From the NCBI GenBank assembly GCA_900617105.1, contig UYFQ01000499.1:1-36422 (forward strand): a stretch of 36,422 nt of DNA, written 5' to 3'. Positions within the stretch are counted from its first letter, which is position 1, and each line of letters starts with the position of its first letter. The position numbers and the translations under genes are program-made. Below the pieces are notes generated by a model. That model made no database searches, was not told where the DNA came from, and was given only the letters and a program-made list of their open reading frames with translations. This DNA is from Hydrurus foetidus. Lineage: Eukaryota. Positions 601 through 35,877 of this stretch are shown here, in pieces.

Positions 601-1357
601 CATAATCATATAAGAGAGCGGAGACGACTCTACCTTTCTAAAGCGCGATGGCTGGCCATCCCGGCGGAAGGGTCACACAGAAACGTTGGGTTAGTGCGAG
701 GACAATATCAGCGCCAGCCGTGTCAGCGCCAGCCGTCTGCAGAGGCATTTACCGTGCAAGATGGTTAAGAGCCATCTGTGCTCGTACGTACGACTGGATC
801 TATTGTGCTATCCGGATATTTCCACTTGACCCTGGAGGGACATAGCACTCCTCCTACAGCGTTTGACGCATTCGAGAGAGACATGGCAATTGCTCTGCAA
901 TATCTGCGTGGTGTGGGGCACGTACTCACGACCCGTACGTACACAAACACTTGGGGATACGAGACATTCGGAACCCCTCCACTGGAAGACTTTCTTTTCG
1001 TACACAACGCGACAACGTACGACTGGAAGATCACCTTTTCTGTCAAGGTCTGGTCCTTATCCGGTGCTGACTGCGTGCTGCGATAAAATCAATGCGGAGG
1101 CATGTTCAGCCGGAACCCTACGGTCTGCCCTGTCTAGCGACCCCCTTATTACGGTGCCGCTTATAAGTTACAAGCAGCAGCACAACATAGAGGATAAACT
1201 GCAATATCTTTCTCGTTATCAACGGTGTAAGCGTATTTTAAAAACGAAACGAATAAGCTAGGGAAGTAGAGTGACCCGATGTGTCTATGGGGGGCGTACT
1301 GGACCGGGAAGGGGACGAGCATTTTGGCTGATTGGAGAAGGTGGGGCAGGGGATGCT

Positions 1358-1505
1358 GTACAGTGCAGTACAGTGCGGCACAGTATAGTGTAGTGTAGTA
1401 CAGTGTAGTGGAGTGCAGCACAGTACGGTAGAGTGTAGTGCACCACAGTGTAGTGCACTACAGTACAGTGCGGCACAGTGAAGCGCAGCATAGCGTGGTG
1501 CAGTG
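1358..1505. repeat. Degenerate pentamer microsatellite (AGTGY/AGTAC-like)
   Basis: 5-bp periodicity: tacagtgcagtacagtgcggcacagtatagtgtagtgtagtac... Confidence 0.85.
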
Positions 1506-2285: not shown

Positions 2286-2503
2286 TGTAGCCATATGCCA
2301 TTTAGTATGGCATTATGAGCTTCTAGGACTATCGGTCTACAGATCGGTCTACAGGGTCGTAGGCTTCCAGCCTCACCCTTACAACGTGTACTCTGCTATC
2401 ATCTAGCTAGTCCACGTAGAAGTTACCCTAGCTACGGCTTTCCCCTGTAACTAAGACTTCAGCTCCTCTCCTTTCCTTTCTCTCTTTTGCCATTCGGACT
2501 ACA
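2286..2503 (+). repeat. 5' LTR of element A
   Basis: Direct repeat of 10637-10854; TG...CA ends. Confidence 0.97.
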
Positions 2504-2514
2504 ATAGATCTATT
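2503..2514 (+). promoter_or_regulatory. Palindromic site at the PBS position of element A (AATAGATCTATT)
   Basis: Perfect 12-bp palindrome starting at the last LTR base; no TGG-type tRNA complement; same geometry in element C. Confidence 0.7.
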
Positions 2515-3074
2515 CCGTCCACTCTTCTTTAGCTAATACCTCCGACTTCTACCTCTCCTTCCCGATACGCCACCTCCAGATCCCAGCCTCTGTCAACAGA
2601 GACGCGGACTCGAGTGAGCCTTCGTGGATTAGTCTTATTGTTACTTTAAATCCATCTCAGCGATTAAGTTCGTCTGCAGACGATTTCTTCGGGGATTTTC
2701 ATCGAGACCAGTTTCGTCGGTTTAACTACCACGACTTGGAGCCTCGAAGCTTTCGAGCTTGTGCACTTTCTAGGTAATTCTAGATCGTTTTGCACGATTA
2801 CCAAGGGTTAGTGAGCAACGTTAAATCGTTTTCTCGCCTCAACTGTGCTTGGTTGGCTTTAAATAGCTGTTCTCACCGAGATTTTCGACGCGTCGAAAAT
2901 CTCGACTTCACACCATCTAACTACTTCGTTTCTGACTGCCTGCTGTTGTTTTCAAGGTTTTCTACCTTACAACACAGGGGGGAAACTCTGGCAAAAATTT
3001 TTCCAGAGTTAACTCTCTTCAGAAAAGTTTTGACAGTAATATCTCTTACACTATATCAAGCTTAATTGCTTGAT

Positions 3075-3930
3075 ATGTCGAGCGGCTCTTCTAACACTGA
3101 TCCCACCTCGGGAATATTGCGAACTCCTGATGGCTTTCAAACAGCATCGGGTAGATTGCGTCAACAGCAATCACAGTCGAGTAATTCTTCGACAAATCAA
3201 CGCTCAGGTTCATCACCGATAGCAATTGATAATCGTCGTTCGCAGGGTTCATTACCTGACAATGTACGTCGCCCTCAGTCTTCGACTGTTCAATTACAAC
3301 AACCTTTGTTCGTATTGAAAGGGCCGCACATCTCTCCTGAAGAGGCTGTTCTGTTTAAGACACAGGCGATACGTGTCCCTGACATCGGATCGTTTACGCC
3401 AAGAACAAACGCGGGTCAGTTGCGTCAACAACGATCGTAGTCCAGAGTTATTTCTCTTCTATCGCATAACGCGCTTAATTGCTACTTATCGGGGATGTTT
3501 CCCAAGGGATATACTCCACCAAAGCTCTTCTTCATGAAGAATTCATCGTCGACATGCGCCTTCGCATTGAGCGCCATGCTTTCGACAAGAGCAATCGTCA
3601 AACCTTCTATTGCATTGCAAAAGGGTTTGTTCGAAGGTGTGATGTCACTCCGTACAGCTCTCAGCTGGAAGCTTTGAAGGCAGAACCCTTCTTACTAGAC
3701 CAGACTGTATGACTCCGTACCACGCGTGTTATCAGACCTTCCTGGCTTTATCCCATAACTCGAATCGGGGACTTTTTATTAAACTGTGTAGTCCACTTTT
3801 AATCCCCTAACGCACAAGGTGAAGGGGCGATTCGAACCAACGATCTGTTCGTTGCGGGTTGATCCCAGGCAGCTAACCACTTAAGCGATAGCTGGTTCGT
3901 GCTTTTCATGAAAATTGTAAGCCTTTCAAT
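3075..3930 (+). pseudogene. gag: gag remnant of element A (stops/frameshifts, cut by the Harbinger-group insertion)
   Basis: First ORF after the 5' UTR; LFVLKGPHISPEEAVLFKTQAIRVP aligns by eye with IFILRGDYITRQDAEEFYEQAQRLP in the equivalent ORF of element C. Confidence 0.7.
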
Positions 3931-4129
3931 AGAGTGTTTCCGCAAAAACGTTTTGGGCACTGGACACCACCGAAAAAAAAAGTTAGCCCAAAACTTTTCA
4001 AAAAAGCACTCTGAGAAATCGGCCACCGTCACTGAAGCCTCAGAGATTTTGAAATTTATTTTTGTCGAACGTGCACCTGCGCAACGAGGCTCATAGAGAG
4101 TCAGAAATCCAATCTTTTCGAGTCGGAAA

Positions 4130-4903
4130 ATGGACAGCAGCTCAAGCGAGGATGTGCCGAAGGCCAAGAAGGTCAGGGCCACGATAAATTGGACTGACAC
4201 AAAACTCGAGGCTTGCCTACAGCAGGTCAAGGTCAGCAAATGCCATACAGGCAAGGGGCTCACTGCAAAGTACGAGCTTGTGGCATCGATTTTAAATGCC
4301 AAAAATGAACACTTCAAGGATAGCGTCTTAACTGGGCCTAATCTCAAAGCAAAGGTTGATAAAGCAGTCATCAACTATGAGGGAAAGTTTCTATCCATGG
4401 AGGCAAACAAATCCGGATTTGAGGGTGACCGCGACGATGAGAAGAACTACACATCGATAGAGCTCCTCGCAAAATCTCTATATCAGGACATCAAGAAAGA
4501 CGAGGAATCGAAAGTAGCCGCGAAATCAGGCTTGGATGACCTCAGCAAACAGAAGGCAGGATTGGAGGCTTCTGCGTTGGGGCTTTCAAATCGGCCCATG
4601 AAAGCCGCAATCAGTCGGACATCACCCTCTGACAGATCCTCTCGAGAACAGGAGAGCAGAGCCTCCACGATTAACACACCTGTTCCAGCCGAAGATCCTA
4701 TGGGCTTATTCCTCGAAAGCTTCGCGAAATCAAAGACCCAGGAGGCAACAATCAGTATGCAGCGTTGGGAAGAGGAAAAAAGGGTGGCAAATATTCGTGA
4801 GGCGATGGCAGAGAGAAACATGCTTTTGGAAGAAAGGAAGTTAAAGCTCGCTGAGGATAAGCTACAGTATGATTTATTACTACTGAAATCTCAAAACCGG
4901 TGA
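4130..4903 (+). CDS. Myb/SANT-like DNA-binding accessory protein of the Harbinger-group element (257 aa)
   Basis: Intact ORF inside the TIRs; INWTDTKLEACL...KYELVASILN...LTGPNLKAKV trihelix-like pattern and C-terminal coiled coil. Confidence 0.75.
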   Translation: MDSSSSEDVPKAKKVRATINWTDTKLEACLQQVKVSKCHTGKGLTAKYELVASILNAKNEHFKDSVLTGPNLKAKVDKAVINYEGKFLSMEANKSGFEGDRDDEKNYTSIELLAKSLYQDIKKDEESKVAAKSGLDDLSKQKAGLEASALGLSNRPMKAAISRTSPSDRSSREQESRASTINTPVPAEDPMGLFLESFAKSKTQEATISMQRWEEEKRVANIREAMAERNMLLEERKLKLAEDKLQYDLLLLKSQNR

Positions 4904-6639: not shown

Positions 6640-9600
6640 TTGGTTGTGTGTAGTGGCTTAGATCGTACTGGCTATAGTAATAATACTGTAATCGATATAG
6701 GTATTAATTTCAAATCGATAAATAACGTATGCCATACCATATATTTGACTGTAAGGGTCAAACAATCGTCGCTCATAGACTTAATTATTGGCAGAGTCTC
6801 TTTAAATAAATACTCGTTTTTTAAATTAACTCCTTTCGCTCTTGGGATAAGTGAGGAACACGAACCGATTTCCTCGGCAAGTTCCGATTGCACAGCGTGC
6901 GACGAACTACCTGATGTCGAACCATTACTTTCGCAACGGTTCACAAAAATATTATCCAGTGATAAGATTAATAAAAATTTGATAAAAAATTCAAATATCT
7001 TACCTATTGAAGAACAGTCAGTTGTAACTCAACTTTTTTTCTACTTCTAATATCCTAAGGGACTTCGGACAACCTACAACCGAAGGGGAAAGACTGACTA
7101 TCTGTGGTCACTCATGTTGTTCGTCCGGGACAGGGTCCTGTCCGGCATTATTGGAATTAGCTACTCCAGAGGCCGGCTGTGAGAGGGGTCGGGCAGTTCA
7201 TGGGAGTATCGTTCACCCTGAACTGACTCGTGACGGTGATACACCTCCCGAAGATGGATTAGATTACATCCCTCCGACACCAGGGTTTCTTAACGACGAA
7301 ACGCATGACACTTTAGGCCACTCGCCAAGTGTTGTCATTATCAGTAACGATGAGATTGACAGTGAGAAAACCGATACTTTCGGACCTTTCCTCCAAGGGA
7401 CTAGCCCTGATTTACCGCCCGACAGTAACGGGTCAGACAAGTTTCTTGACGAAATAACTTTCGTTGGTATGGAAGACCAAATAATTGCAATGAAACTTCT
7501 CTGCTTAGAGTTTCGCGACTTGTTCAGCAATAAAATTGCAACTCTACCAGCTAAACTAGATCCGTTTAGACTGGATGTGAGGGAACAAGAATGGGAAATA
7601 TCCGCAAACCGGACCCCGGTCCGACCCCAATCATCTCGTAAAGAGATTGAAATAAAAAGCCTTAGACGAGATGCTTTCATTAGGTATCATCGAATCTTCG
7701 AGTGCAGTCTATTACAGTCACCCTGTAGTAGTACAAAAGACAGCTGATACGTATCGATTCTGCATCGATTACAGACTCTTAAATGCGTGCATGCAACCAG
7801 CTAGTTTTCCGCTACCGAATATTCGGGGTCTTTTTGAACGCATTGGCCGTCACCAAGCCGATATTTTCGGTGTAATGGACTTAACTGCCGGTTACCATCA
7901 AGCTCCGCTTTATGAACCACATCGCCATTTTACGGCATTCATATGCTATGCAGGCATATTCCATTTTACTAGACTCCCCTTTGGACCTAGGTGTGCTCCC
8001 TCTTACTTCCAAGAGCAGATGGCCACCAAAGTCCTTCGCGGTCTCATATATATGATATGCGAAATATATCTTGACGATATAATTATATATGGCCGGGGAT
8101 TTGCAGAGTTTCTTAGTAGACTGAGAGAGATATTTTTACGTTTACGTGAATTTCGCATTTTGCTTAAAGCAAAGAAATGCAAATATGGTTGTAAAAGCCT
8201 AGAGTATGTTGGTCGTACAATCTCAAAAGACGGATTATCCATGTCTGAGACAAAAATTGAGTCTATACTCAACTTTCCAAGACCACAGACTTTAACAGCA
8301 CTTCGCTCGTTACTGGGTCTTGCGAACTATTTTAGAGGATTTGTACCAAATCACTCTACTATAGTCGCACCTTTACAGAGATTAGTTGATTCTAAAGCTC
8401 ACAAAAAATCACCAATTATTTGGACACCTAGTGCTATACTAGCATTCCAACACGTAAGAGTGGCTATATCAAGATGCCCTCTAATGTATTTTCTTGATGA
8501 AAAGTCAACTATTAAGTTATACACTGACGCATCAGATTATGGAATCGGTGGTGTGTTAATTCAAGTTGTTAACAATGGAGACCTATCGCTTTCATTAGCA
8601 AGTCACTTTCTGCAACACAATTAAAATGGTCCACGATACAAAAAGAAGCTTATGCTATCTATTACTCGTGTCAACAACTTGATTCTTTAATTAGAGATCG
8701 AGAGTTTGAAATACATACCGATCACAAAAACATTACATATATGAAACAAACACCAACGTCAATGGTGTCACGGTGGTTTATAGCTTTACAAGAATTAAAT
8801 TTCAAAGTTATATTTGTGAAGGGCACACAAAATCAGCTAGCAGACGGTCTATCAAGACTTTGTCCCAACATAGCTAAGTTAGCTTTACCGTTCACACCGG
8901 TAGCTACTAGCAATAATGAAATAGTATTATCTGCACTGACAGTTATACCTGAACCTAATCCAGAACAACTTGAATGGATGGAACAATGTCACAACGCAAT
9001 AGTGGGACATGGTGGTTCTTCTAGAACTCTTACCAAACTTTTCAGTTTAGGTCATGCATGGAAGTATATGCGACAGCACGTACGTATGTTCATTGCATCT
9101 TGCCCATGCTGTCAAAAGATGAGCATGATAAAGGTACCGGTTGAAGTTCAACATTATGTGACTTCTTCTAACCGACCTTTTGACGTCGTGAATATCGATT
9201 TTATCGGGCCATACCCAGACGATTCATACGTTCTTGTTATTATTGACACATTTTCTAAATGGATTGAACTTTTCCATTGCAAAGATGCCACTGCTAAATC
9301 AGCATGTGAGGCACTCTTGCAACATTTTGGTCGCTACGGCGCTCCCAATATGATTAGATCTGACAAAGGTTCTCATTTCGCAAACGATTTGATAAAAGAG
9401 TTTCTTGTTTTAACAGGTACTCCACACAACCTTACATTATCTTATTCTAAACAAGAAAATGGGGTAGTTGAACGTGCTAACAGAGAAGTCAACAGACATC
9501 TTCGCGCATTAACTTTCGAAACTAATGATGTAAATAACTACAGATTAAGTCTTCCATTTGTACAAAGAATTATAAATAGTTCTATACACGAAACTACAGG

Positions 9601-10239
9601 CGTAGCACCTGCTAGTATGTTGTTCGGGAATCAAGTAAATCTTGATAGAGGTATTCTTATACCCAATCCGGTAATTCGAAACACTGAAAAGAGCTCAGCT
9701 CTTATATCTAATATGTTATACATACAAGATCAAGTAATGCTAAATGCAATTGCAAAAGTAACACTAGCAAAAGCAAGACATTTAGTGAAAAATGCCAAAC
9801 CATTGACTGTATTTCCAGTTGGTTCATATGTTTTAGCAAAGTATGCTGTGGGGCCACCCACTCGTTTACACACTAAATGGCAGGGACCATTTCAGGTCAT
9901 TTCGTATATCGATTCAGAATACACATTACTTAATTTAGTGAATAAATCTGAACGAATTACCCATGCAAGTAATCTGAAGCAGTTTATTTTTGATCCTTCA
10001 AGAACATCTGCTCCAGATATTGCTAGACGGGATTATATGGAATTCTTTGTTGAATCCATTGTAGAACATCGTGGAGACACAAAACGATTAAATTCGCTGT
10101 TTTTAAAGTAAAATGGCTCAATTACGATGATTCACATAATTCATGGGAACCATGGAATGCATTAAGAACATGCGACAAACTACACGATTATCTTCGTTCA
10201 AATCAAAAGCTCAAGAAATTGATGCCTAAAAACTTCTAA
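6640..10239 (+). pseudogene. pol: pol of element A: partial protease, RT, RNase H, integrase, chromodomain; frameshifted
   Basis: IDLIIGR (protease C-term), RFCIDYR, DLTAGYHQ, LPFG, YLDD, TDASDYGIG, H-X4-H...CPCC, DFIG/SDKG/ERAN, KWQGPF, then FFVESIVEHRG...KVKWLNYDDSHNSWEP; frame breaks near 7655, 8575 and 10100; stop at 10237-10239. Confidence 0.95.
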
Positions 10240-10356: not shown

Positions 10357-10619
10357 TATGTTATTTTGTACATACATTAATTTGTATTGATTTACAAAAT
10401 AAACTTATTTCCACGACCACTCCCGACTCTCTTTAAATTTTGTTATTTTGTTAAATTTCGTTTTACTATTTTATATTGAAATCTTTTCTTTTTCTTGTAT
10501 ATTTCTGTAATCGAATTACTTTTCATGTAAATATGTTAGTATCATTTTTAAATTTTATCTTATTTTTAAAAAAAATATAGCTTAATTAGAGATAAGTGGG
10601 AGTAGGGTCATTCTCTGTG

Positions 10620-10636
10620 GAGATAAGTAGGAGTAG
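10620..10636 (+). promoter_or_regulatory. Polypurine tract of element A (GAGATAAGTAGGAGTAG)
   Basis: Abuts the 3' LTR; near-copy at 10589-10605; 16/17 identical to the PPT of element D. Confidence 0.9.
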
Positions 10637-10854
10637 TGTAGCCATATGCCATTTAGTATGGCATTATGAGCTTCTAGGACTATCGGTCTACAGATCGGTC
10701 TACAGGGTCGTAGGCTTCCAGCCTCACCCTTACAACGTGTACTCTGCTATCATCTAGCTAGTCCACGTAGAAGTTACCCTAGCTACGGCTTTCCCCTGTA
10801 ACTAAGACTTCAGCTCCTCTCCTTTCCTTTCTCTCTTTTGCCATTCGGACTACA
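10637..10854 (+). repeat. 3' LTR of element A
   Basis: Direct repeat of 2286-2503, followed by TSD CAAC. Confidence 0.97.
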
Positions 10855-11389: not shown

Positions 11390-12740
11390 ATCAATATTGA
11401 AAGAATGCTTCATTTAAAACCGTATATCATGGTTGGGGAAAGTTTGTTATTACCCACTGTGATAGTACCGGGCCCAAGGTCCCGATCCTACCGGGTACCG
11501 ACTATACCGGATCCTACTGGGTATCGACCTACCGGGTACTACTGCTGTCACTGCAGACTGTTGTCTCGTCGTAGCCATTTACAGCCACCACGTAGAAGTT
11601 AGCCTCCCTAGCTTCTAGCATAGCCGCCTGTAAACTAACCAAAGCCTACACTCTATTTCCTACCCTTCCTCGGATCACACTACTATCAATCTGACGAATG
11701 AGCAATGGGTGATTGTAGAAGGTGTTTGTGCTATTCTAGCATTGTTCAAGTTTGTCCAGAAGATAATGGAAGGAGAAAAGCATGTGACTGTCAGCCTAAT
11801 ACCAGGTAAAATACGTACTAAAATGCTTTACTGAAATTGTCACACGCTTGTTCCTAGGAACATTCTACTCCTCTTTATAACATTTTGCACTCTTCAGGCA
11901 TGATCAACCAAATCCGATTAGGCCTTGGAAGGGCGGACTCTGATGCCAATACAAGCGCTGCTGCAAGATTGGTTCTTAATAAGATTACCGAGAAATTTAA
12001 TGAGGAGTTTGGCACAGGTTGTGCTGGTACAGTTTTTTCGGACCATGAAAAAGGAGGATCATTTCGTAGGTTTAAAGGTTTTCAACTGAAGACAATGATC
12101 GCCACTGCATTGGACCCGAGGACAAAGATGCTTGTTGGTAACACACAAGAATGCAATATAAATTTATGTCAAAACATTATTTAAGATTAAATACATTTTT
12201 ATCACAGGCATACCATCAACGTCAATTAACCGTGAGCAAGTGTGGACGGCAATGAAGGATCTCATGATTGAGCTGTGGGTAATGAGACATAACGCCGGGG
12301 TCTGGAGTCCCGAAATTGCAAGAGCAAGAGCTTTACCAAGTGATGAGGACCCATAGGGAGAAGAAGAAGAAGAAGAAGAAGAGGAGGTTCCTGAACCTGG
12401 TCCTCCTCCATTGAATATGCATGAAGTTCAACGAGCAGTTACTGCAGAACTTAATGCGTAAAAATCTATACTGAGAATAGATATGAGAGAGACATTAGAA
12501 AATGGTGACAAAGGTAAATACATTGACCGATTAACCTGGAGGAAGGATCGCATGGAAAGCTCTCCAACGCTTTGCCAGATAGCAAGGAAAGTACTTCGCA
12601 TTCCTGCGACTTCTGCCCCATCTGAGAGAGTTTTTCTGTAGCAGGACTCACCATTTCGCAAATGTGTTCTAGACTAGACAGCGATAATGCTTCGTGTCTT
12701 ATATTTCTCAGAGACAACTGGGACCTTAGTTATCAAATGA
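11390..12740 (+). pseudogene. hAT transposase C-terminal remnant with introns
   Basis: IERMLHLK...LTNEQWVIV...MEGEKHVTVSLIP, ATALDPR, and dimerization motif LCQIARKVLRIPATSAPSERVFSVAG; GT-AG introns near 11806-11898 and 12139-12208; N-terminus missing. Confidence 0.9.
11458..11679 (+). mobile_element. Solo LTR B (chromovirus lineage related to A and C) inside the hAT transposase
   Basis: TGTGA...TCACA ends; shares CCAAGGTCCCGATCCTACCGG with LTR C and CCACGTAGAAGTT with LTRs A and C; flanks CCAC/CTAC; removing the LTR plus 4 bp restores the hAT frame LLPTINLTNEQW. Confidence 0.9.
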
Positions 12741-23350: not shown

Positions 23351-24211
23351 GCATTCAGATATCTTATGTCCATCATTTGATAGCCATCAGACGCGTCTTC
23401 TTTCACAGATGAAGTGGTTTTTCTCCAGTCACATTCGAAGTAAGTTTTCTCCGGTGCAGTGTACGTTCATCACTACAATATGTTCATGAAACCACCCTTG
23501 GAGAGGACATTTTATTCGGCACCCATTTACGGACATACTAAATCAATTGAAGATATACTTTAAAACTGAAAAAAACACTTAAAGGTGTGTAAAAATACTA
23601 AAACATGTAATGTTCTACTACAAGATTTGTATAGTCAAATGTGTGTAACTTCTACTATTTCAATAAAAGCTGTACTAAAAACAACGAAATGATACTATTT
23701 AGATAGACCATTGTACTAATACCTGTGAGTCCGTTGTTGGTCTACCAAACGATAGATATCATCCGAGTTTATTTCGTGTGCAGCCAATCAAGGCTACGTC
23801 AACAAATCAAGGCTTTTCTAACCCTATATCTACTGATAGCTGTAGCCATCTACTCATTTATTAACCCTAACCCTGACCGCCCCCGAGCCATTCTAATCCT
23901 AACTGAAACCAGAAGAAAAACGACATGACTTCTACGTGATAGCCCGAAGTTACTATTATGAAATTCCAAAAAAAAAGTAGAAATAAAAGTGCAGCATCAT
24001 GAATTCAGTATTGCGCACCAATTAAAGTACGACTTCCATGAAATAGTAGGTCGATCTTTACTTTAGGGTATAAAATCCATATTTTAGTACAGCTGTGTTT
24101 TGGTAAATTTTTCAAGATTTTGGTACAGAATCTATGTTATAGTATTTATTACCAGATTTTAGTATGCCCATATATTTGCCCGATTTTATTCTGCTGTCGT
24201 ACGGCTGGTTC

Positions 24212-24473
24212 TGTTGATAGCGCACGTACAACATAGTTAACACGCACCGTACGCAGCGTACACACCAGGGCGCACGTACAACACATGTAACACACATTGT
24301 ACGTAGCGTACATACACTACACATCGTACGCAACTATCATTTTCAAACACTGTCAATTGCAGCAACAGTTAGCCATGCGTATTGACTTCCATCCCGCATA
24401 ATTTAATTCCAACACCTGTGAAACACGTACATTCGTTTCACCTTTGGTGCGCAATTTAATCTGCGGATCAACA
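24212..24473 (+). repeat. 5' LTR of the young Copia
   Basis: Direct repeat of 29578-29839. Confidence 0.97.
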
Positions 24474-24484
24474 GTTGGAATTAA
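24474..24484 (+). promoter_or_regulatory. PBS-position 11-mer GTTGGAATTAA complementary to LTR 24403-24413
   Basis: Exact reverse complement of TTAATTCCAAC inside the LTR; abuts the LTR end. Confidence 0.75.
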
Positions 24485-24491
24485 CCTCATC

Positions 24492-25586
24492 ATGGCCACT
24501 TTTCCGGTGACTTTAATGGATCAACCTCGACAAAATTTTCGGTCATTTTATCGGGCAGCAGTCGCCTCCTATGGTGCTGCGTGCACCACAGTCCACCAGC
24601 ACGGCCTGCTTGGATTTATCTTAAATGATGCACAATGGGAACAACTTCCCGGAAATCTCGTTCCCAACGCCGATCCTGAACTACCAAACGAAGTCGTGCC
24701 TCGCCCTACCATCATTCTTCCCGTCACGCCGGCTGCCAACGCCACTGCCCTCACCATCAAAGTCTGGGAGAAGCGCCTCGCAGAAAATGTTCTAGTGACC
24801 GATAGCCTAAGATCTCTCAAAGCACAACTTATCGCCAGCGTCCAACCAGCTGATATCGTCATTCTACACGACCCATTTTTTGGTCTCCTCAATGTGCCGG
24901 CATTGACAATAATGATACACCTTACAGAACTCCACGGCACGTTGAACAGCACCGACTTCGCCCACCTTCGCTCTCAACTGTCACTCCCGATGACACCCCA
25001 CGCATCTCTCCAGGATTTTATCGGGACACACCAGTTACTTCACGATCAATTCTCAGAAGCTCAGCAACCCCTGTCCGAACTTGACAAGTGTCATCACTTT
25101 CGCGAAGCAGTTAAAACGCTTGCACACATCAATCATGCAATCGACTCCTACTTAGTCGCTCATCCCCTAGTGGGGGGACAAAACTTCAGAGCGCTCACCG
25201 CACACACGCTCCAATAAGCACCCAACTTCACTCCAACAGCTGCAGCGATGGGTTACGCAGCGACCATCACCCAAAATCACAGCACAATTCTCGACGTTGA
25301 CAACGTGTCCGCACTACTGCACACACCAGCATTCGCCGCTCTCATCACAGCCGCCGTAAAGGCGGCCACTCCGGTTAATCCTCGCGGCCAACGCACCCGC
25401 ACCCCGGCTGCGAAACGTCCCCCGGCTGCTGCCCCCCAAAAAGACAGACTGTATTGTTTCCACCACGGGTATGACAGTCATCGCGGTTCCGACTGTAGAC
25501 ACATGTTCACGAATGACTTCGCCGCTGATCAACGCGCCACTACAAATCACAATACTATATCCGGTGCGTCCACCGCTCGATTCTGA
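24492..25586 (+). CDS. gag: Copia gag with one internal in-frame TAA (25215-25217)
   Basis: ORFs 24492-25217 and 25218-25586 share a frame; C-terminal knuckle YCFHHGYDSHRGSDC (CHHC type). Confidence 0.85.
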
Positions 25587-28500
25587 CGGTTAGGGGCGGC
25601 GCAAGAGCTTTTCTGTTATCTTCCTGCACGGTGTAACTTAACTCAAACAACCTCTTCAGTCGTCCCCCCTTCCCTTTGTGCCGACACTGGATCCACGCAC
25701 ACGTTGCTCCGTGCATCAGATGCCCCATATATCAATAGCATCGAAACAAGTCTTCATGTGCTCCTCCCCAACGGCGCTACTATCTCATCTATCGGTGCTT
25801 GCAACCTCGATTTTCCAAACCTCCCGCACACTGTGCCGTGTCACATCTTTCCAAATGACGTTCTCAATACTTCCCTATTATCCATATCGCAACTTTGTAA
25901 AATGGGATGTGTCGCTACTTTCTCGGCCTCCGATGCCTCAATCACATTCAGCAACCGCCCCGTACTACGTGGCCTCAAATCGCCCGACGACAACCTATGG
26001 ACTCTACCTTTTCTAGCCTTCAACACTGCACTCCTTCCCACAGTACGTGCTGCGTACGCACTGTCATCAGATGCCTCGTTTGTAAAATTCACGCACGCTT
26101 CACTTGGTAGCCCCTCACTCACTACCTTGACGAAAGCTGTTCGTCGTGGCTATCTTCACTCGTACCCGCGACTCACATCACTCATGTTAAATGCTCATCC
26201 GCCAATTAGCATCGCCACAGCTCAGGGACATTTGGATCAACATCGCCAAGGTCAAAATTCAACTCAGATTCCTGTCACCATCTTTGACACAAACGACACC
26301 GATGAGGATCTCGTGCCAGCTGACGCTCCCACACAGCTCACCGCTTACACACGAGTTGTCCTTCTGTCCGATACTTTACATTCCGACCTCACCGGTCGGT
26401 TTCCGGTAACATCACACAATGGTGCTCAATACATATTTGTGTCAGTCTTAGACGGTTACATCCATGTTGAAACAATGAGAACAAGGCATCATACAGAGTA
26501 CGTTACAGCCTACAAAAAGACGCTAAACTTTTTCGCTCAGCGTGGCCGCCGGCCCGCCTTTCAACGCTTGGACAACGAGACATCCGGTCCTTTAGAAGCA
26601 TTCGCAACTGCCAACAACATCAGCATACAGTATTGCCCGCCGCACACACACCGCTCACTCAAAGCCGAACGAGCAATTCGCACTTTCAAAAACCACTTCA
26701 TAGCCACTCTGGGCACAGTAGCTTCAGAGTTCCCCATGACGCTTTGGGATGAACTGCTGCCGCAGGCCGAGCTTTGCCTGAATCATCTGCTGCCCTACAG
26801 TCCCAACCCCGCTGTATCAGCGTATGCTGGAATCCACGGCGGTGCGCTAGACTTCACTCGACATCCCATCGCTCCAGCCGGAACTCGTATCCTTATCCAC
26901 GACAAACCCACTGTTCGATCCTCCTGGGCACCGCATGGAGTCCCAGGATACTACCTCGGCCCCGCGCTGCAGCACTATCGGTCCTACCGGGTTTGGTCAT
27001 CCACTTCCAAAGCAACCCGCATCTCCGATACTTTAGCGTGGTTTCCTAGCGGGTTTACAGTCCCCGGACCAAGCCCACACGATAACCTTCTCGCCGCAGC
27101 TATAACGCTGAAGAAAACACTCACAGAATTTAATTCATTGCCTACACAATTTCGTACCAATTCGCAACCCGGAGTTTCCGTCATAGCATCCGTCATTACC
27201 GATTTGGCCGGGATCTTGGGTACAGACCCGGCCGGAACTGTGGGTACCGATCCGGATACCGTAAGTACACCCGCACCAACGCTAGCTCTCCCTGCGCCAA
27301 CGTATTACATCACACTCATAGCACCTTCAGTCGCTGCTATCCCTCTTCCTTTGCCGGACTCTCGCCAAGAACAGAGGGTGGTCCCCAATATAAGCACTAC
27401 CGATCTACCTCCTTTATCCCCTCCGTTTGCAGAACACGAAGTGCCTCAACCTCTTGTGTCCCCATCAGTCCAGATACCAGCCGGTCCACACCAACATCTG
27501 AACACTTCCACCCAATATGACTCTCCCAACATTCGCATCACAAGCCATCATCCACGACGACCATCGGTACCGCTCCCACCTCAGATCTACAGAAATGCTA
27601 CCCACCCACCTCAGTTCGCAGCTGCCCTTACCACGCTTAATCTTGACGACCACGGCCAACCGTTACGTTACTCAACCGCCAAAGCAGGGTCCAATGCACT
27701 ACTGTGGCAACAAGCCGAATCCGAAGAGCTCGACAGACTTCTTGCAACTGAAACGATTCGGCCCATTTTCCTGGCTCAGCAACCTATTGATCGCAGACGG
27801 GATACAACTTATTACAACCCTCAGACAAAAGAAAAGCAAAATGCTTCAGGTGAAAGAACATACCGCATCCGTGGCACCATCGGTGGCGATCGTATCCATT
27901 ATCCCGGCCCGACAACTGCTCGAACCGCTGCAATGCCCCTGGTAAAAATCCTTCTTCAATCAGTCATATCCGACGGAAGCAAATGGCTCACCATTGATAT
28001 CAAAGATTATTACCTAAACACGCCACTTCCTCGCCCTGAGTACCTGCGCATCGCGTCAAAATTTCTCCCGTCTACAGTAATTCATCAACACGACCTTCAG
28101 CAATTTTTTCATAATAATGCTATCCTCTTCCAAGTCAACAAAGGTATGTATGGGCTCCCCCAGGCAGGACTCCTCGCACAACAAAGACTCATCACTCACC
28201 TGGCATCCGAAGGCTATCATCAAACCGATACTATTTGTCTCTTTCGCCATGTGACTAATGGAACGGTGTTTTCGCTTGTCGTCGATGACTTTGGAGTCAA
28301 ATACACAAATATGGACGGCGTCAACCACTTAATTCAAACGCTCCAAGCCTTATACACCATCACCGTTGACTGGACAGGTTCCAAGTATCTCGGTTTCTCG
28401 ATTGACTTTGATCAACGTCATCGTACTGTTACGCTCAGCATGCCAGGTTATATTGCTAAAGTGCTTCAGCGCTTCGCGCCATTACTCAAAATTGGAGCCA

Positions 28501-29414
28501 ATTCTCCAGCTGTATACATCCCACCCAAGTATGGCGTCGGACAACAGACACCACACATCGACACCAGTACACGTCTATCACCCGCAGAAACTACTACATT
28601 ACAAGAGATTGTTGGCTCCCTTCTCTATTACGCCAGAGGTGTAGATGTAATCATATTGCCGGCGGTAACACACCTGTCGTCCCTACAAGCGCAACCTACA
28701 CAAGACGTTCTCCAGGCCGCGCAACGCCTCTTAGCTTACTGCTCACGCTATCCCAACAATGGTCTCCGATACTATGCATGCGATATGATCTTACATATTC
28801 AGTCGGACGCTTCCTATCTCTCTCGTCCCGGAGCTCGTTCTGTAGCTGGAGCTCTCTTTTACCTGGGAAATATTGGTCAACCCACACACATCAATGGTTC
28901 TGTACACGCACTCAGTTCTATCATACCTGCTGTCGTGGCCTCTGTCGCTGAAGCTGAATATGCAGCTCTCTTTCACGCTGGCCAAGAGGGAATTTGGCTC
29001 CGGCATATTCTCCAATCGCTCGGATATCCTCAACCGTCAACAACCATTCTGTGCGATAACAAATGCGCTGAGGGAATCGCATTAGACACCATAAAGCCAA
29101 AACGCACCAAAAGCATCGACATGCGTTTCCACTGGATTCGTGATAGAATTCGTCAAGGACAATACACAGTCACATGGCGCAAAGGAGCCGACAATCTTGC
29201 TGATTTTTTCACAAAACCTCTGCCTGTTCACTTACATCAAAAGCTTATGCCGCTGCTCGTTCACATTCCTCCTGCCCAGTACGCCACAAACACCACAAGC
29301 TCAGCATCTCGTGCACTCACTCATCGAAACAAAAAGGCTTCAACCACCGAAACTCCCCCTAATTATACTGATTTGAAGGACGAGTTGGTGGGATTCACCT
29401 ACAGTGCTTCGTAG
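25587..29414 (+). CDS. pol: Copia pol (protease, integrase, RT, RNase H), open and in frame with gag after TGA
   Basis: LCADTGSTHT, HSDLTG, RLDNE, AERAI, RGTIGGDR, IDIKDYYL, KGMYGLPQAG, VVDDFG, QSDASYL, EAEY, CDN, ADFFTK; no stops from 25587 to 29411. Confidence 0.96.
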   Translation, partial: RLGAAQELFCYLPARCNLTQTTSSVVPPSLCADTGSTHTLLRASDAPYINSIETSLHVLLPNGATISSIGACNLDFPNLPHTVPCHIFPNDVLNTSLLSISQLCKMGCVATFSASDASITFSNRPVLRGLKSPDDNLWTLPFLAFNTALLPTVRAAYALSSDASFVKFTHASLGSPSLTTLTKAVRRGYLHSYPRLTSLMLNAHPPISIATAQGHLDQHRQGQNSTQIPVTIFDTNDTDEDLVPADAPTQLTAYTRVVLLSDTLHSDLTGRFPVTSHNGAQYIFVSVLDGYIHVETMRTRHHTEYVTAYKKTLNFFAQRGRRPAFQRLDNETSGPLEAFATANNISIQYCPPHTHRSLKAERAIRTFKNHFIATLGTVASEFPMTLWDELLPQAELCLNHLLPYSPNPAVSAYAGIHGGALDFTRHPIAPAGTRILIHDKPTVRSSWAPHGVPGYYLGPALQHYRSYRVWSSTSKATRISDTLAWFPSGFTVPGPSPHDNLLAAAITLKKTLTEFNSLPTQFRTNSQPGVSVIASVITDLAGILGTDPAGTVGTDPDTVSTPAPTLALPAPTYYITLIAPSVAAIPLPLPDSRQEQRVVPNISTTDLPPLSPPFAEHEVPQPLVSPSVQIPAGPHQHLNTSTQYDSPNIRITSHHPRRPSVPLPPQIYRNATHPPQFAAALTTLNLDDHGQPLRYSTAKAGSNALLWQQAESEELDRLLATETIRPIFLAQQPIDRRRDTTYYNPQTKEKQNASGERTYRIRGTIGGDRIHYPGPTTARTAAMPLVKILLQSVISDGSKWLTIDIKDYYLNTPLPRPEYLRIASKFLPSTVIHQHDLQQFFHNNAILFQVNKGMYGLPQAGLLAQQRLITHLASEGYHQTDTICLFRHVTNGTVFSLVVDDFGVKYTNMDGVNHLIQTLQALYTITVDWTGSKYLGFSIDFDQRHRTVTLSMPGYIAKVLQRFAPLLKIGANSPAVYIPPKYGVGQQTPHIDTSTRLSPAETTTLQEIVGSLLYYARGVDVIILPAVTHLSSLQAQPTQDVLQAAQRLLAYCSRYPNNGLRYYACDMILHIQSDASYLSRPGARSVAGALFYLGNIGQPTHINGSVHALSSIIPAVVASVAEAEYAALFHAGQEGIWLRHILQSLGYPQPSTTILCDNKCAEGIALDTIKPKRTKSIDMRFHWIRDRIRQGQYTVTWRKGADNLADFFTKPLPVHLHQKLMPLLVHIPPAQYATNTTSSASRALTHRNKKASTTETPPNYTDLKDELVGFTYSAS

Positions 29415-29577
29415 ACCGACACCCATACCACCGCCGGCGAGCACCCTTTCGGGGATCGAACCGACGGCCATTCGATTATGATTGATCATCACTGACCTAT
29501 CACGTCACAACTCTGTCTTTTTGTCCTGAAAATACGAATACATATCTGTTCAAGCATGCACCATGTTTGAGAGGGTG

Positions 29578-29839
29578 TGTTGATAGCGCACGTACAACAT
29601 AGTTAACACGCACCGTACGCAGCGTACACACCAGGGCGCACGTACAACACATGTAACACACATTGTACGTAGCGTACATACACTACACATCGTACGCAAC
29701 TATCATTTTCAAACACTGTCAATTGCAGCAACAGTTAGCCATGCGTATTGACTTCCATCCCGCATAATTTAATTCCAACACCTGTGAAACACGTACATTC
29801 GTTTCACCTTTGGTGCGCAATTTAATCTGCGGATCAACA
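29578..29839 (+). repeat. 3' LTR of the young Copia
   Basis: Direct repeat of 24212-24473, followed by TSD GGTTC. Confidence 0.97.
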
Positions 29840-29940
29840 GGTTCTTATGTATGTTGGATATTGCGTGCATAGGGCTGATGTTAGTAGAGAGGTGTACTTA
29901 CGTACGTTACTTTCAGGCCTGAATGTAACGCACTACACTT

Positions 29941-30214: not shown

Positions 30215-33200
30215 TGTTGCGAACACTAAGCTTCGTGCACGGTGAACAGGGACGCCGTGCACAAGTTTTAATATCAAGTACTTGACTATCACATAGTTAT
30301 TTTACGAGCCTCAGAACGTTCCCGTAAGCTTCACAGCTACCTGAACCGTGGATTTCTGACATATTAAAACTAGAGGACAGCAAAGTGTTGCCGCCCAAAC
30401 GCGCAGCGGAAGCAAAAGATTCAACACCGGAATGCATGCTCTGCATAGGAAAATTCAACAACATCGTAGCGTGGAATCTCGAAATGAGCACTTCAGTGGG
30501 CGCCGTGTATGGACTCACTGCCAATTTCCTGCTGACGAACATCAGATATGTACCACCACTGCCTCGCAACGAGGATTTCACAGTAGTGTACCCGGTACCT
30601 GCGGAGGGGGAACGAGACGCTGTGGCGATCACCGCAGCACTTACTGCAAAACCCGCATGAAGTCAATCATACAAGCGAGGGAAGACGAGGCCAAAATCTG
30701 GTCTCTAATGTGGCACAAAATGTCACCCGCGTCGCGCTGCAAATTACAGGAACAAGCCGAATATACGGCAGCGCACGTCAGGAAGGACTGCGTCGTCCTG
30801 TGGGATCTCATCAGACGCACTCACCTAACACACATAAACGGCGAAGGAGATCACCTACAACTGCTCAATGTGAAAGAGCAGGAGTGCCGATACGAGGTCC
30901 TCAAGCAAGGTGAAAGAGAACATCTAGCTAACTTCATGACTAGATTTGAAGCGCAGGTCCTGGCTTGCAGAAGTGCCGGGGTACCAGAAAACGCGCGATG
31001 GACTTCGTATACAAGCTGGACAAGGCGAGATACGGCGGCATGGTGGGAGATATGCGCAACGCTGCCAACAGACTGGAACCAAACGCATACCCACCGACGG
31101 TCATCGCCGCTGTCCGAATTGCAACCGGATACGTGACGAATGACCCAGGGTTCTCACGGCCACCCGGTACAGATACCGATACCCACACTGCTCTGGTAAC
31201 AGACACAGACCCAACCGGCAAGGCCGACGACGTTAAACAAGCCAGGAAAGGAAAACCCGGCACGAAGAAGAAAGGCAAGTCCACTGTGGAATGCTTCGTG
31301 TGTGGCAAGATGGGCCACTACGCCAGGGACTCTGACATTTGGGCCGTCCGACAGCGACGATGGGGAAGAGGATCTCGAGGAAGAGGATGTGGCCTACGTT
31401 ACAACCTTAGAGAGGGTGCTGTTCACACGGGACGACGTACTCCTGGACAGTCAGGCGTCGGTGGACGTATTCTGCAACCGAGAATTGCTAAACAACGTGA
31501 GACAGTCAGAGACGAGAGTTGTGCTGAACGGGGTTCAAGCCAAAGCGTCTGGAGTTTCTATAGATCAATAAGGGGATATCCTAGACGTGGGGAAATGCTA
31601 TTTCAGCAAGGAGGCGACAGCGAATATTTTATCATACGCTGTAATGGTAGACGCAGGCAATGACGTGAGTTACGACAAGGTTAACGACCGATTCATACTC
31701 AAGCCGGCTGGGAGCCGGAGAGTGTACTCGTTCTGCAGGAAGAAAGTCAGTGGAAGCGAAGGAAGGTTTTACTGTTGTCATGTGAAGACAATGGTACAGG
31801 AAGAGCCTACGTCGTATCCGGAATCAACAGATCATGCGATGATAGAAATCGTTGAAACAATCTGATGAAATACACCAAGCGTGAGATCGCTGGTGCAGAC
31901 AGGGCGCGGCTGCTGCTGGCGAAGATGGGTTTCCCATCTGTGAGAAACGCGATCGACATTGCAACTTCGACGTGACAGCTAGGGATTTCTCTATAGCTGA
32001 GGATATCTATGGGAAGGATATTGCGACGATGAAGGGTAAAACAAAGAAGCGAGTGTCCATATGTGCAGACATAACTGTGGGTGCCGCTGTGGTGCAAGTG
32101 GAACAAGTTCTGTCAATAGACGTGATGTTTGTGGACGGCGTGCCGTCTCTAATAGGACTGGCAACGCCGCTGGACCTAACCATGGCGGTGACCCTGTCAG
32201 CATTCGACTCTGCTCAGGGCCCGAGGTCAGCGGCCGTCGTTAAGAAGGGAATAGACGGATTCGTTGCAACGCTCGCATCGAGAAACTTCATCACGAGGAT
32301 GATAATGAGTGACGGTGAGGATGCAGTGGGTAAGATCAAGGAGGATCTCAACATGCTGGGTATTGAAGTCGACATCTCTGGGGCAGGAGGTCATGTGGCG
32401 AGAATAGAACGGAAGATACAGACGGTAAAGGAACGGCTGCGAGCGTACATTGCTCACCAACTACCATTCACTCTAACATATCTGGGCGTGGCAATGTTAG
32501 TACTATTTTGCGTTTCTAGGTTGAACTATCAAGTTTCATCGGTCAGCGGGTAATGTTCTCCGGGAGACAGACGGACGGGAAGATGGATTTCAGAGCAGGA
32601 TTCGGGGAATACGCGCAATGCACCGTGCCGAACACCAACAACACCATGGAACCGAGGACTGAAGACTGCATCGTTATGCTGCCGACAGGAAACAGAACAG
32701 GATCGGTCAAGATGATGTCGATCAGTACCGGTAAGTTGATCACAAGAGATCAATTTAAAATACTACCGATGTCGTCTTATGTTATCACAAAGCTGAACGA
32801 GATGGCGATGGCGGAGGGAAAGAAACTACTCCGGAGATCCAAGTTGGTGTACGAAGTCGAAAGAGGGTTGCAAATGACTGAAGAACCCACGTACCTACGG
32901 CCGACCCAAGATCCTGCGGCCAACCTGGACCCTGTAGTCACAGCCAACCCCTACACCCAGCTAGATCTGGATGACGGCGAGAGAGAGGAGTACCAATTCG
33001 ACCCCGCGATGGTGAATGACATCATGGGATACCCTGAAGACTACGATGAGCCGATCGTGCAGGGTGGGGAACTCAATATGGAAGACTTGGATGTTAAGGA
33101 GCTCCAGGAGTTCGGACCGGGTACACCCGGAGTATACCATCATCCCGACGCGGCGGTACCGGTCACTCCACCAGGGAATACACAAACACCTATATACACG

Positions 33201-34737: not shown

Positions 34738-35877
34738 TGTGGTAGTTCCGGGTCCAAGGTCCCGATCCTACCGGATAGTACTACGGTACACTACTCACCG
34801 TACACTACAGTCTGTTGTATCGTCGTAGCCACTTACAGCCTCCACGTAGAAGTTCACCCTAGCTTCTAGCCTTTAGCTGTAACTAACTACCTCTCCCAGT
34901 CTTTCCCCTCTTCTTTGCCCATCCGAGTCATAATAGCGCTATTCCCACTCATCCTTCTTCGCTTCTTTCTCTACCTATCTACTTGTCCCAAACTTTTAGA
35001 TAGATTTCCAACGGAGTAGATTCACTCCACGACTTCCGAGGAGTCGTTTTCTCGTTGAGCCCGAAACTCCGAGAACTTAGTTTAAGTTTACAGGAGTTTG
35101 GCGTAGCCGCTTCCTGCTTGAAACCCTCCGAAAGGTGTCTTCAAAAGTTCGATTTTGGTCGAAGTCGCGAGAGGCTTCCCAACTCGAAATTAAGGAGTTC
35201 TCCACTAGCAATTTGGACACCGGTTCCACTGCTAGCGACATCAGATTAGTCTAAGGACGTCTTTTGGTCAACAGGAGTTTCTTCCTTCATCCTTAACAGG
35301 ACCTAACATTTGCAATCACCCAAAATTCGGCTTTCACGCCATAGAATTTTTCTCGACAAGAGTGGGTTGAAATTCTTTCATTCGCTGTTACTTGCGTAAA
35401 GTACCCGATACGCGAACGAGGCGAAGCTCTCGCAAAAATTTTTTGACGAGGAAAGCTCGTCCGCGCTTCGATACAACTCGATTTATATCGACTGCTCATC
35501 CTACGATAGGAGATGGAAGACGACGGTCTACATCCTGAGCCTGAGCCAAAGGAGCCAGACAACGAGCATGAGATTGATGAGGAAGGAAACATCCTTATCG
35601 TCTCACAAAGCTCACAATCGTCAAGCATGGGGTTTCCCCAGACGCTTCAGACCCAGCGTGAGATATTCATCCTACGGGGAGATTATATTACTCGGCAGGA
35701 TGCTGAAGAATTCTATGAGCAAGCACAACGCTTGCCTCACTTGCATATTAAACAATGCATGCAATGTCAAGCAATCGATTTGCTTCATGTTAAAATCTTA
35801 ACTGATCAGTCGACACTGGCAGTTATTACCAACGAGCAACGCCTTAATTGGCAAAACCTCCTTCCGATAGAGAGTGT
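34738..35877 (+). mobile_element. Chromovirus-lineage element C: 5' LTR (34738-34932), 5' UTR and start of gag
   Basis: LTR starts TGTGG and resembles LTR B; followed by palindrome AATAGCGCTATT (34932-34943); gag similar to that of A; breaks the Copia RNase H after ERGRSGA. Confidence 0.88.
35513..35877 (+). pseudogene. gag: gag N-terminus of element C, interrupted by element D
   Basis: Position after the 5' UTR and similarity to A gag; the ORF runs into the inverted LTR D at 35878. Confidence 0.75.

What the first reader, a model, noticed from the sequence alone, without database searches (positions are those of the whole stretch)
2503..2514. Covarying 12-bp palindromes replace the PBS in chromoviruses A and C
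Seen: A has AATAGATCTATT (2503-2514) and C has AATAGCGCTATT (34932-34943), both starting on the last LTR base. The central AT-to-CG double change keeps the palindrome perfect. Neither starts with TGG or has a complement inside its LTR. Inference: tRNA-independent priming or dimerization through intermolecular pairing of two genomic RNAs. From memory, a similar 'dimer-priming' idea was proposed for green-algal chromoviruses, so novelty needs checking.
Basis: partly seen in the sequence, partly recalled or inferred. Interest (0 to 1): 0.78.

Follow-up and report, generated by a model that had tools for sequence, protein, structure and literature searches.

The report
Palindromic primer site in chromovirus retrotransposons
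Two related jumping genes carry a 12-letter self-complementary sequence exactly where a borrowed tRNA normally starts their DNA copying; it is predicted to pair two RNA copies of the same element and would likely start copying without a tRNA, an arrangement so far described only in an unrelated group of fungal elements.

Summary
AATAGATCTATT (2503-2514) and AATAGCGCTATT (34932-34943) are perfect palindromes. Each begins on the last base of a 5' LTR: shown for A by its identical LTR pair, inferred by homology for C. A is a Ty3/gypsy chromovirus. C is related through its LTR, leader and a small leader ORF.

Neither element has a TGG within 120 nt of the LTR end, and neither has a 6-nt or longer complement of the site in its LTR. 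That argues against a tRNA 3'-end PBS and against Tf1-type self-priming.

New here:
- 4-bp arms flank the palindrome and also pair (A GGAC/GTCC, C GAGT/ACTC). Across 10 pairs, 4 show compensatory changes.
- In four public runs, no variant is listed inside either palindrome. In the C family the outer pair T34928-A34947 is mostly C and G.
- Predicted homodimers are -24.8 and -25.5 kcal/mol, reached by 0 of 500 shuffles. Monomer hairpins are weak, and no A:C heterodimer forms.

Best reading (about 0.4): family-specific RNA-RNA pairing that replaces the tRNA PBS and supplies the primer in trans. The pairing is computed; the priming is inferred from position only.

The closest precedent is the palindromic site of fungal GalEa copia elements, whose mechanism is unknown. 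I found no "dimer-priming" paper. This is a new variant of a known kind.

The parts
2286..2503 (+). Element A, 5' LTR (218 nt, TGTAG...CTACA)
   Evidence: 100% identical to 10637-10854. Flanked by the 4-bp duplication CAAC. Contigs of other copies diverge after 2503.
2503..2514 (+). Palindrome A, AATAGATCTATT, at the primer-binding-site position
   Evidence: No variant is listed at 2442-2543 in 4 runs laid at 80% likeness.
2497..2520 (+). Extended pairing unit of A: arms GGAC (2497-2500) and GTCC (2517-2520) around the palindrome, with 3x2 internal loops
10619..10636 (+). Polypurine tract of A (GGAGATAAGTAGGAGTAG), directly before the 3' LTR
   Evidence: Read from the sequence.
10637..10854 (+). 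Element A, 3' LTR
7656..10236 (+). A pol: RT, RNase H, integrase and chromodomain. The chromodomain (10054-10236) lies in a shifted frame. This copy has several frame breaks.
   Evidence: Pfam RVT_1, RT_RNaseH, Integrase_H2C2 and rve. Chromo PF00385, E 1.7e-8. Best solved relative is Ty3 Gag-Pol.
34738..34932 (+). Element C, 5' LTR (195 nt, starts TGTGGTAG), inserted into a copia-like pol. C runs off the window end.
   Evidence: Homology to A and to the solo LTR at 11458-11679. Depth jump and purine-rich loose ends just before 34738.
34932..34943 (+). Palindrome C, AATAGCGCTATT
   Evidence: No variant is listed at 34932-34946 in 4 runs, while the flanks are polymorphic (30 weaker rows were not shown).
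34925..34950 (+). Extended pairing unit of C: arms GAGT (34925-34928) and ACTC (34947-34950), with 3x3 internal loops
   Evidence: (I4). The partners 34928 (T>C) and 34947 (A>G) are both majority variants in all 4 runs.
2984..3010 (+). Second conserved palindromic hairpin of the leader in A (AAAAATTTTT core, 8-bp arms), 65 nt before the leader ORF
   Evidence: I2; z = -4.5.
35429..35450 (+). Counterpart of that hairpin in C (same A/T core, different arms CTCG/CGAG), 63 nt before the leader ORF
11458..11679 (+). Solo LTR 'D' of the same LTR superfamily. It ends GGATCACA with no internal part after it.

Best explanation
The palindrome occupies the minus-strand primer site of two related chromovirus families and is predicted to pair with the same site on a second RNA copy of the same family; this duplex likely replaces the tRNA:PBS duplex, so that a partner RNA cut at the 3' side of the palindrome would prime minus-strand DNA synthesis in trans, while the family-specific centre also acts as a dimer-linkage site.

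Shown:
- The position against U5.
- No TGG-type PBS and no complement of the site in the LTR.
- Perfect self-complementarity, with covarying centre and arms.
- No variant listed inside either palindrome among family copies.
- A strong computed homodimer, a weak monomer hairpin, and no A:C heterodimer.

Inferred:
- That the pairing happens in RNA inside particles.
- That RNase H (as in Tf1) or another nuclease creates the 3' OH.
- That one of two co-packaged genomes is spent as the primer.
For: Position. The palindrome starts on the last LTR base of A. The minus-strand primer must anneal within a few bases of U5 (established retroelement biology).

No conventional alternative.
- The first TGG lies +122 nt (A) and +167 nt (C) after the LTR end. 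The copia-like element B in the same window has TGG at +2.
- There are 0 complementary k-mers of 6 nt or more in the LTRs. A's best LTR:site duplex is -11.0 kcal/mol against a shuffle mean of -10.95.

Pairing is selected.
- Of 10 symmetric pairs, 20 of 20 cells pair. 4 pairs change on both sides between A and C (the centre plus 3 of 4 arm pairs).
- Registers slid by 1-3 columns give 27-42% paired and 0-1 compensatory pairs.
- In the C family, 34928 T>C has shares of 71, 73, 75 and 90%. Its partner 34947 A>G has 60, 63, 61 and 89% in the same four runs.
- No variant is listed inside either palindrome.

Dimer rather than hairpin.
- Homodimers are -24.8 (A) and -25.5 (C) kcal/mol; 0 of 500 shuffles reach either.
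- Monomer hairpins are -4.3 and -3.0 kcal/mol; 29 and 12 of 200 shuffles fold as well.
- The A:C mix folds as two separate monomers.
- The site is the best self-dimer window of 153 in C's LTR plus leader, and the third-best locus in A.

Precedent for the chemistry. Tf1 uses its own RNA as primer (passages). Its trans priming between co-packaged RNAs is known to me only from the title of Haag et al. 2000 and from recall.

Precedent for the anatomy. Fungal GalEa elements have a palindrome that includes the final A of the 5' LTR.
Against: - Only two independent families could be compared. The centre change alone has a 1-in-3 chance of keeping a palindrome.
- With 2 sequences the shuffle control is weak: 33 of 500 shuffles reach the observed covariation.
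- Linkage of the 34928 and 34947 variants on single copies was not shown, and their shares are not equal.
- withheld 30 weaker variant rows.
- No RNA holder was listed and no cDNA data exist, so neither dimerisation nor priming is observed.
- Cutting a genome at its own primer site costs that genome. No palindrome-primed LTR element has been demonstrated experimentally.
- The host's tRNAs and small RNAs could not be screened, because no genome is held.
- A's leader holds other, stronger palindromes (2877-2904, 2670-2683). Palindromes are therefore a general habit of this leader.
- A second conserved hairpin (2984-3010 and 35429-35450) could be the real dimer signal.
- The A copy has frame breaks and C is incomplete in the window.
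Confidence: 0.42

Rival explanations
1. The site is a dimer-linkage or packaging signal only. The palindrome pairs two genomic RNAs, but the minus-strand primer is something else not yet recognised.
For: The same pairing evidence as above. Retroviruses and Ty1 use palindromes for dimerisation (discussion passage of PMC5445492; titles and abstracts listed). Nothing here shows a 3' OH at the site.
Against: A primer site must abut U5, and no other candidate exists within 120 nt. The leader has a separate conserved hairpin with a palindromic A/T core, which looks more like a kissing-loop signal.
Confidence: 0.25
2. The site is a monomeric U5-leader stem-loop. The arms and the outer palindrome bases fold in cis. 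This would either present an unknown primer or, after a cut 3' of the palindrome, give snap-back priming on the same RNA.
For: The minimum-free-energy fold of each 30-32 nt core is this hairpin. The arm covariation fits it equally well.
Against: The hairpins are weak (-4.3 and -3.0 kcal/mol, z = -1.1 and -1.7). The central four bases would be loop, so their kept self-complementarity would be a coincidence. The dimer is 16-19 kcal/mol better than two monomers.
Confidence: 0.1
3. A host RNA, such as an internal tRNA fragment or another small RNA, anneals here as the primer, as half-tRNA primers do in some copia elements.
For: Half-molecule tRNA primers exist (passage of PMC6317226). The host RNA set could not be screened.
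Against: A and C live in the same genome yet differ at the centre, so two different host RNAs would be needed, each itself a perfect palindrome. A contiguous 10-12 nt palindrome does not fit a tRNA cloverleaf arm (inference). No tRNA gene or Rfam family is in the window.
Confidence: 0.08
4. The site is a DNA-level signal: a symmetric binding site for a dimeric protein at the LTR edge, for example in transcription control.
For: Perfect palindromes are typical of dimeric DNA-binding sites.
Against: Protein sites conserve letters, not complementarity. Here the centre and 3 arm pairs change with compensation, and the arm spacing differs (3x2 against 3x3 loops).
Confidence: 0.05

Closest known systems
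'Conserved Hairpin Site' of fungal GalEa (Ty1/copia) retrotransposons (Donnart et al. 2017, PMC5445492; section 10 read whole and discussion passages)
   Same: There is no tRNA-type PBS. A conserved palindrome lies directly after the 5' LTR and is palindromic only when the final A of the LTR is counted. Family variants differ at symmetric inner positions (CTGATCAGT against CTAATTAGT). No complement is found in U5. The authors could fit it to no known priming model.
   Different: Different superfamily: copia against a Ty3/gypsy chromovirus. 10 nt against 12 nt. GalEa has a second inverse-complementary copy 12-41 bp downstream that forms a hairpin. Nothing of that kind lies within about 300 nt here; instead, 4-bp arms flank the palindrome. 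The paper's additional files 4 and 6 were not read.
Tf1/Tf2 and the Tf1/sushi and Tcn1 chromoviruses: self-primed reverse transcription (passages of PMC6317226; primary papers seen only as reference titles, details recalled)
   Same: These are chromoviruses without a tRNA PBS. The primer is the element's own RNA. The primer:PBS duplex is about 11 bp, similar to the 12 bp here. Priming in trans between co-packaged RNAs is reported (title only seen).
   Different: Tf1's PBS pairs with the first bases of its own transcript inside the LTR. That complement was looked for here and is absent. The Tf1 PBS is not palindromic (stated in PMC5445492).
Retroviral dimer initiation sites and Ty1 PAL sequences (mentioned in PMC5445492; Ty1 papers seen only as listing and abstracts)
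   Same: These are short palindromes in the 5' leader that pair two genomes. Subtype-specific centres that stay palindromic are recalled for HIV-1.
   Different: Those palindromes sit in hairpin loops, apart from a normal tRNA PBS. Here the palindrome is at the PBS position itself and no tRNA PBS exists.

Membership tests
Chromovirus (Ty3/gypsy with chromodomain) | pol order RT, RNase H, integrase | tested here: met
   Pfam hits in that order on A. Ty3 Gag-Pol is the best solved relative. Not testable for C, whose pol lies outside the window.
Chromovirus (Ty3/gypsy with chromodomain) | Chromodomain at the integrase C-terminus | tested here: met
   PF00385, E 1.7e-8, 34.7 bits (cut-off 25.1) at 10054-10236, in a frame shifted from the integrase ORF.
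tRNA-primed LTR element | PBS next to U5 that starts with TGG and is complementary to a tRNA 3' end | tested here: not met
   The first TGG is +122 nt (A) and +167 nt (C) from the LTR end.
tRNA-primed LTR element | PBS complementary to an internal tRNA part (half-tRNA type) | not testable with these tools
   No host genome is held and no tRNA is in the window.
Tf1/sushi-type self-priming | PBS complementary to the transcript's first bases inside the LTR | tested here: not met
   0 complementary k-mers of 6 nt or more. A's best duplex equals the shuffle mean. C's best duplex partner (34717-34741) lies mostly outside its LTR. The transcription start is unknown.
GalEa-type Conserved Hairpin Site | Conserved palindrome after the 5' LTR that includes the LTR's final A | tested here: met
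   compared with section 10 of PMC5445492.
GalEa-type Conserved Hairpin Site | Second inverse-complementary copy 12-41 bp downstream | tested here: not met
   No 12-mer with 3 or fewer mismatches, and no 10-mer with 2 or fewer, within about 300 nt. The best downstream duplexes lie 110-150 nt away, and A's partner is polymorphic.
GalEa-type Conserved Hairpin Site | Element belongs to the GalEa clade of Ty1/copia | tested here: not met
   A is Ty3/gypsy.
Retroviral DIS-type kissing loop | Palindrome exposed in a hairpin loop, in addition to a separate PBS | tested here: not met
   The palindrome forms the helix itself and no separate PBS exists.

The most novel reading that the evidence does not exclude
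A third way to start reverse transcription in LTR elements: two co-packaged genomic RNAs pair through a family-specific palindrome that abuts U5, and one is cut and used as the primer for the other. This mode arose independently in Ty3/gypsy chromoviruses (here) and in Ty1/copia GalEa elements. The palindrome's centre acts as a barcode that keeps families from priming or dimerising with each other.
Probability: 0.3. Interest if true: 0.85.

Novelty: new variant of a known kind. Interest (0 to 1): 0.62.

Why it matters
How LTR elements without a tRNA site begin DNA synthesis is settled for only one model, Tf1. The palindromic site of fungal GalEa elements has had no mechanism since 2017.

Finding the same anatomy in a different superfamily suggests a general, convergent solution rather than a curiosity. 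The shared anatomy is a palindrome that starts on the last LTR base, with no tRNA match and no complement in the LTR.

The covarying centre and arms, and the computed failure of A and C to pair with each other, make the trans-pairing idea directly testable. The results also warn annotation pipelines that 'no PBS' elements may be fully functional.

Tried and rejected
- Whole-genome search: no genome is held for this window.
- More family members from public collections:
  - A metagenome scan with an LTR motif that left the palindrome free gave 23 loci, 0 of them related.
  - Two pattern scans and one protein scan of viral contigs gave 0.
  - A genome contigs pattern scan gave 1 locus, an unrelated bacterial match with a non-palindromic centre.
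- Expression: no RNA holder was listed among 20 runs.
- Tf1-type complement in the LTR: none found.
- GalEa-type second copy downstream: none found.
- Rfam: 0 hits at gathering score for the whole window. One chance-level snoRNA hit (E 0.72) in 2286-3200.
- ARAGORN: 0 tRNAs.
- Host taxon: the protein atlas gave only 'Eukaryota', with mixed phyla.
- An 8-nt complement between the conserved LTR motif GTAGAAGT and A's leader (2545-2552) was considered as a primer site. I rejected it because it lies 42 nt beyond the LTR end and is not kept in C.
- One contig in run X3 continues after 2514 with the reverse complement of 2492-2502, a fold-back at the palindrome. It matches the predicted product. However, it is 1 contig with 11 letters at very high depth, and is equally expected as a library artefact, so it carries no weight.
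- Earlier-notes look-ups found nothing for this genome or sequence.

Full report
**What is there**

AATAGATCTATT lies at 2503-2514 and AATAGCGCTATT at 34932-34943. Both are perfect palindromes, and AATAGNNCTATT occurs nowhere else in the window.

Element A is bounded by two 218-nt LTRs, 2286-2503 and 10637-10854, that are 100% identical.
- The LTR ends are TGTAG...CTACA.
- A 4-bp target duplication CAAC flanks the element.
- A polypurine tract lies at 10619-10636.

Contigs of other copies in public runs diverge after 2503. Base 2503 is therefore both the last LTR base and the first base of the palindrome.

A encodes RT, RNase H and integrase in the Ty3/gypsy order. A chromodomain follows in a shifted frame (PF00385, E 1.7e-8). 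Its best solved relative is Ty3 Gag-Pol. A is thus a chromovirus, although this copy has frame breaks.

Element C has only its 5' LTR (34738-34932), its leader and a small ORF inside the window.
- It is inserted in a copia-like pol and runs off the window end.
- Its LTR start is fixed by homology to a solo LTR at 11458-11679 and by the depth jump and purine-rich loose ends in the runs.
- Its LTR end is inferred from alignment to A and to that solo LTR.
- Calling C a chromovirus rests on similarity of LTR, leader and leader ORF to A, not on a pol.

**Is it more than chance?**

A 12-mer at a fixed place is a palindrome once in 4096. The window is, however, palindrome-rich: 24 perfect 12-mers against 8.9 +/- 2.9 in 50 shuffles. 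Seven of the 24 lie in A's leader.

The stronger argument is conservation. A and C are alignable only over about 120 nt around the LTR end, at 71% identity. Within that stretch, the 16 nt centred on the palindrome match at 13 positions. The flanking 28 and 27 nt match at 14 and 13 positions.

**Not a tRNA site, not a Tf1 site**

The first TGG after the LTR is 122 nt away in A and 167 nt away in C. The copia-like element B in the same window has TGG two bases after its LTR.

Neither LTR contains a 6-nt or longer complement of the 27 nt after the LTR. A's best LTR:site duplex (-11.0 kcal/mol) equals the mean of 300 shuffles. C's best duplex in that call used bases 34717-34741, which lie mostly outside its LTR as later defined.

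ARAGORN and Rfam find nothing in the window.

**New structural evidence**

The pairing extends beyond the 12-mer.
- In A, GGAC (2497-2500) faces GTCC (2517-2520).
- In C, GAGT (34925-34928) faces ACTC (34947-34950).
- Small internal loops (3x2 in A, 3x3 in C) separate these arms from the palindrome.

Counted on the A/C alignment, all 20 cells of the 10 symmetric pairs are standard pairs. Four pairs differ on both sides: the centre and three of the four arm pairs. Sliding the partner register by 1-3 columns gives 27-42% pairing and 0-1 compensatory pairs. With two sequences the shuffle control is weak: 33 of 500 shuffles reach the observed score.

**Variation among copies**

I laid contigs of four public runs on both junctions at 80% likeness. 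Two runs were labelled with the coded organism and two were sediment metagenomes.

For A, no differing letter is listed anywhere in 2442-2543.

For the much more polymorphic C family:
- No difference is listed at 34932-34946, while positions on both sides vary strongly.
- 34928 T>C has depth-weighted shares of 71, 73, 75 and 90%.
- Its pairing partner 34947 A>G has 60, 63, 61 and 89% in the same runs.
- This T-A to C-G exchange can pass through a U-G wobble.

Two caveats apply. Linkage on single copies is not shown, and 30 weaker variant rows of that call were not displayed.

**Dimer or hairpin?**

| Measure | A | C |
|---|---|---|
| Monomer hairpin, kcal/mol | -4.3 | -3.0 |
| Shuffles (of 200) folding as well | 29 | 12 |
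| Homodimer of the 30-32 nt core, kcal/mol | -24.8 | -25.5 |
| Shuffles (of 500) reaching the dimer | 0 | 0 |
| 12-mer duplex alone, kcal/mol | -11.6 | -14.9 |

As a monomer, the four central bases would be loop. The A:C 12-mer pair is only -5.2 kcal/mol, and the A+C core mixture folds as two separate monomers.

The site is the best self-dimer window of 153 in C's LTR plus leader. In A it ranks third, behind two A-specific palindromes.

**Mechanism**

The minus-strand primer has to anneal next to U5, and this is the only conserved pairing element there. I therefore read the palindrome as the functional replacement of the tRNA:PBS duplex.
- Two RNAs of the same family pair through it.
- One is cut 3' of the palindrome, and its new 3' end is extended over the partner's U5 and R.
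- A cut between 2511 and 2514 would place the first copied base at or just beyond the terminal CA.

The pairing is computed and supported by covariation. The cut, the enzyme and the sacrifice of one genome are inferred. The family-specific centre would also keep A and C RNAs from pairing with each other.

A pure dimer-linkage role with an unknown primer is the main rival. A cis hairpin, a host small-RNA primer and a DNA-level protein site are less likely, for the reasons given under the rivals.

**Comparison with what is known**

Full-text searches found one true precedent. Fungal GalEa copia elements lack a tRNA PBS. They carry a 9-bp sequence that is palindromic when the final A of the 5' LTR is included. 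It has two main variants that differ at symmetric inner positions, and a second complementary copy lies 12-41 bp downstream. The authors found no U5 complement and could fit no known model (PMC5445492, section 10 read whole and discussion passages).

A bivalve TRIM paper cites that feature (passages). Self-priming is predicted for Tcn1 chromoviruses and TAR elements, and is said not to be used by other plant chromovirus clades (PMC6317226, passages).

The present case shares the GalEa anatomy at the junction. It differs in three ways:
- it lies in the other superfamily;
- it lacks the second copy;
- it has flanking arms instead.

I found no paper proposing dimer priming in green-algal chromoviruses. 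An earlier unchecked note of this scan reports a 12-letter self-complementary primer site in a miniature LTR element of another genome. The paper it named does not mention palindromes in the passages I searched.

**Limits**

- No genome is held for the window.
- Scans of metagenome, viral and prokaryote collections returned nothing related.
- No RNA holder was listed.

**Verdict**

Intermolecular pairing is well supported by computation and covariation. Priming is plausible but unproven.

It is a new variant of a rare, mechanistically unexplained kind of primer site, of moderate to high interest.

Noticed in passing
window 2503-4420: A's 5' leader is unusually rich in perfect palindromes: 7 of the window's 24 perfect 12-mers lie here. 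They include a 28-nt perfect palindrome at 2877-2904 (hairpin z = -4.8) and a 14-mer at 2670-2683. Apart from the primer-site palindrome at 2503 itself, none is kept in C.
   Followed up: partly
window 2984-3010 and 35429-35450: This is a second leader element conserved between A and C. It has an AAAAATTTTT core with different, complementary outer arms (8 bp in A, 4 bp in C). It lies 481 and 497 nt after the LTR end, and 65 and 63 nt before the leader ORF. It is a candidate kissing-loop or dimer signal.
   Followed up: partly
window 3075-3440 and 35513-35920: Both elements have a small ORF (121 and 135 aa) ahead of gag. They share a 34-residue block with 38% identity (pairwise E 3e-6). No family was assigned.
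   Followed up: partly
window 2514 (run X3, table 7): One contig continues after the palindrome with the reverse complement of the preceding 11 LTR bases, a fold-back junction. It may be a library artefact at very high depth, or a trace of palindrome-primed synthesis.
   Followed up: no
window 30274-30285: A 12-nt perfect palindrome TCAAGTACTTGA lies about 90 nt upstream of the gag region of the copia-like element (pol 30360-34745), with no TGG nearby. It could be the same kind of site in a Ty1/copia element. That element's LTR boundary cannot be fixed in the window.
   Followed up: partly
window 24207-29845: Copia-like element B has 99% identical LTRs, ends TGTTGAT...ATCAACA, and an apparent 5-bp duplication GGTTC. 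It has a TGG-type site 2 nt after the LTR, so ordinary PBS-like sites coexist with the palindromic type in this genome.
   Followed up: partly
window 11458-11679: A solo LTR related to C's LTR. It shares the motif CACGTAGAAGTT with A and C and ends ...GGATCACA. The flanks CCAC and CTAC differ at 1 of 4 bases.
   Followed up: partly
window 2286-2800 and 34738-35240 in runs X1, X2, X3, X7: Both families are extremely abundant in the runs labelled organism A, and are present in freshwater and sediment metagenome runs. In the two organism-A runs (X2, X3), LTR depth of A is several-fold that of its internal part. The C family is far more polymorphic than A.
   Followed up: partly
window 1330-1500: A run of degenerate short repeats (variants of CAGTG/TAGTG units) lies upstream of element A.
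   Followed up: no
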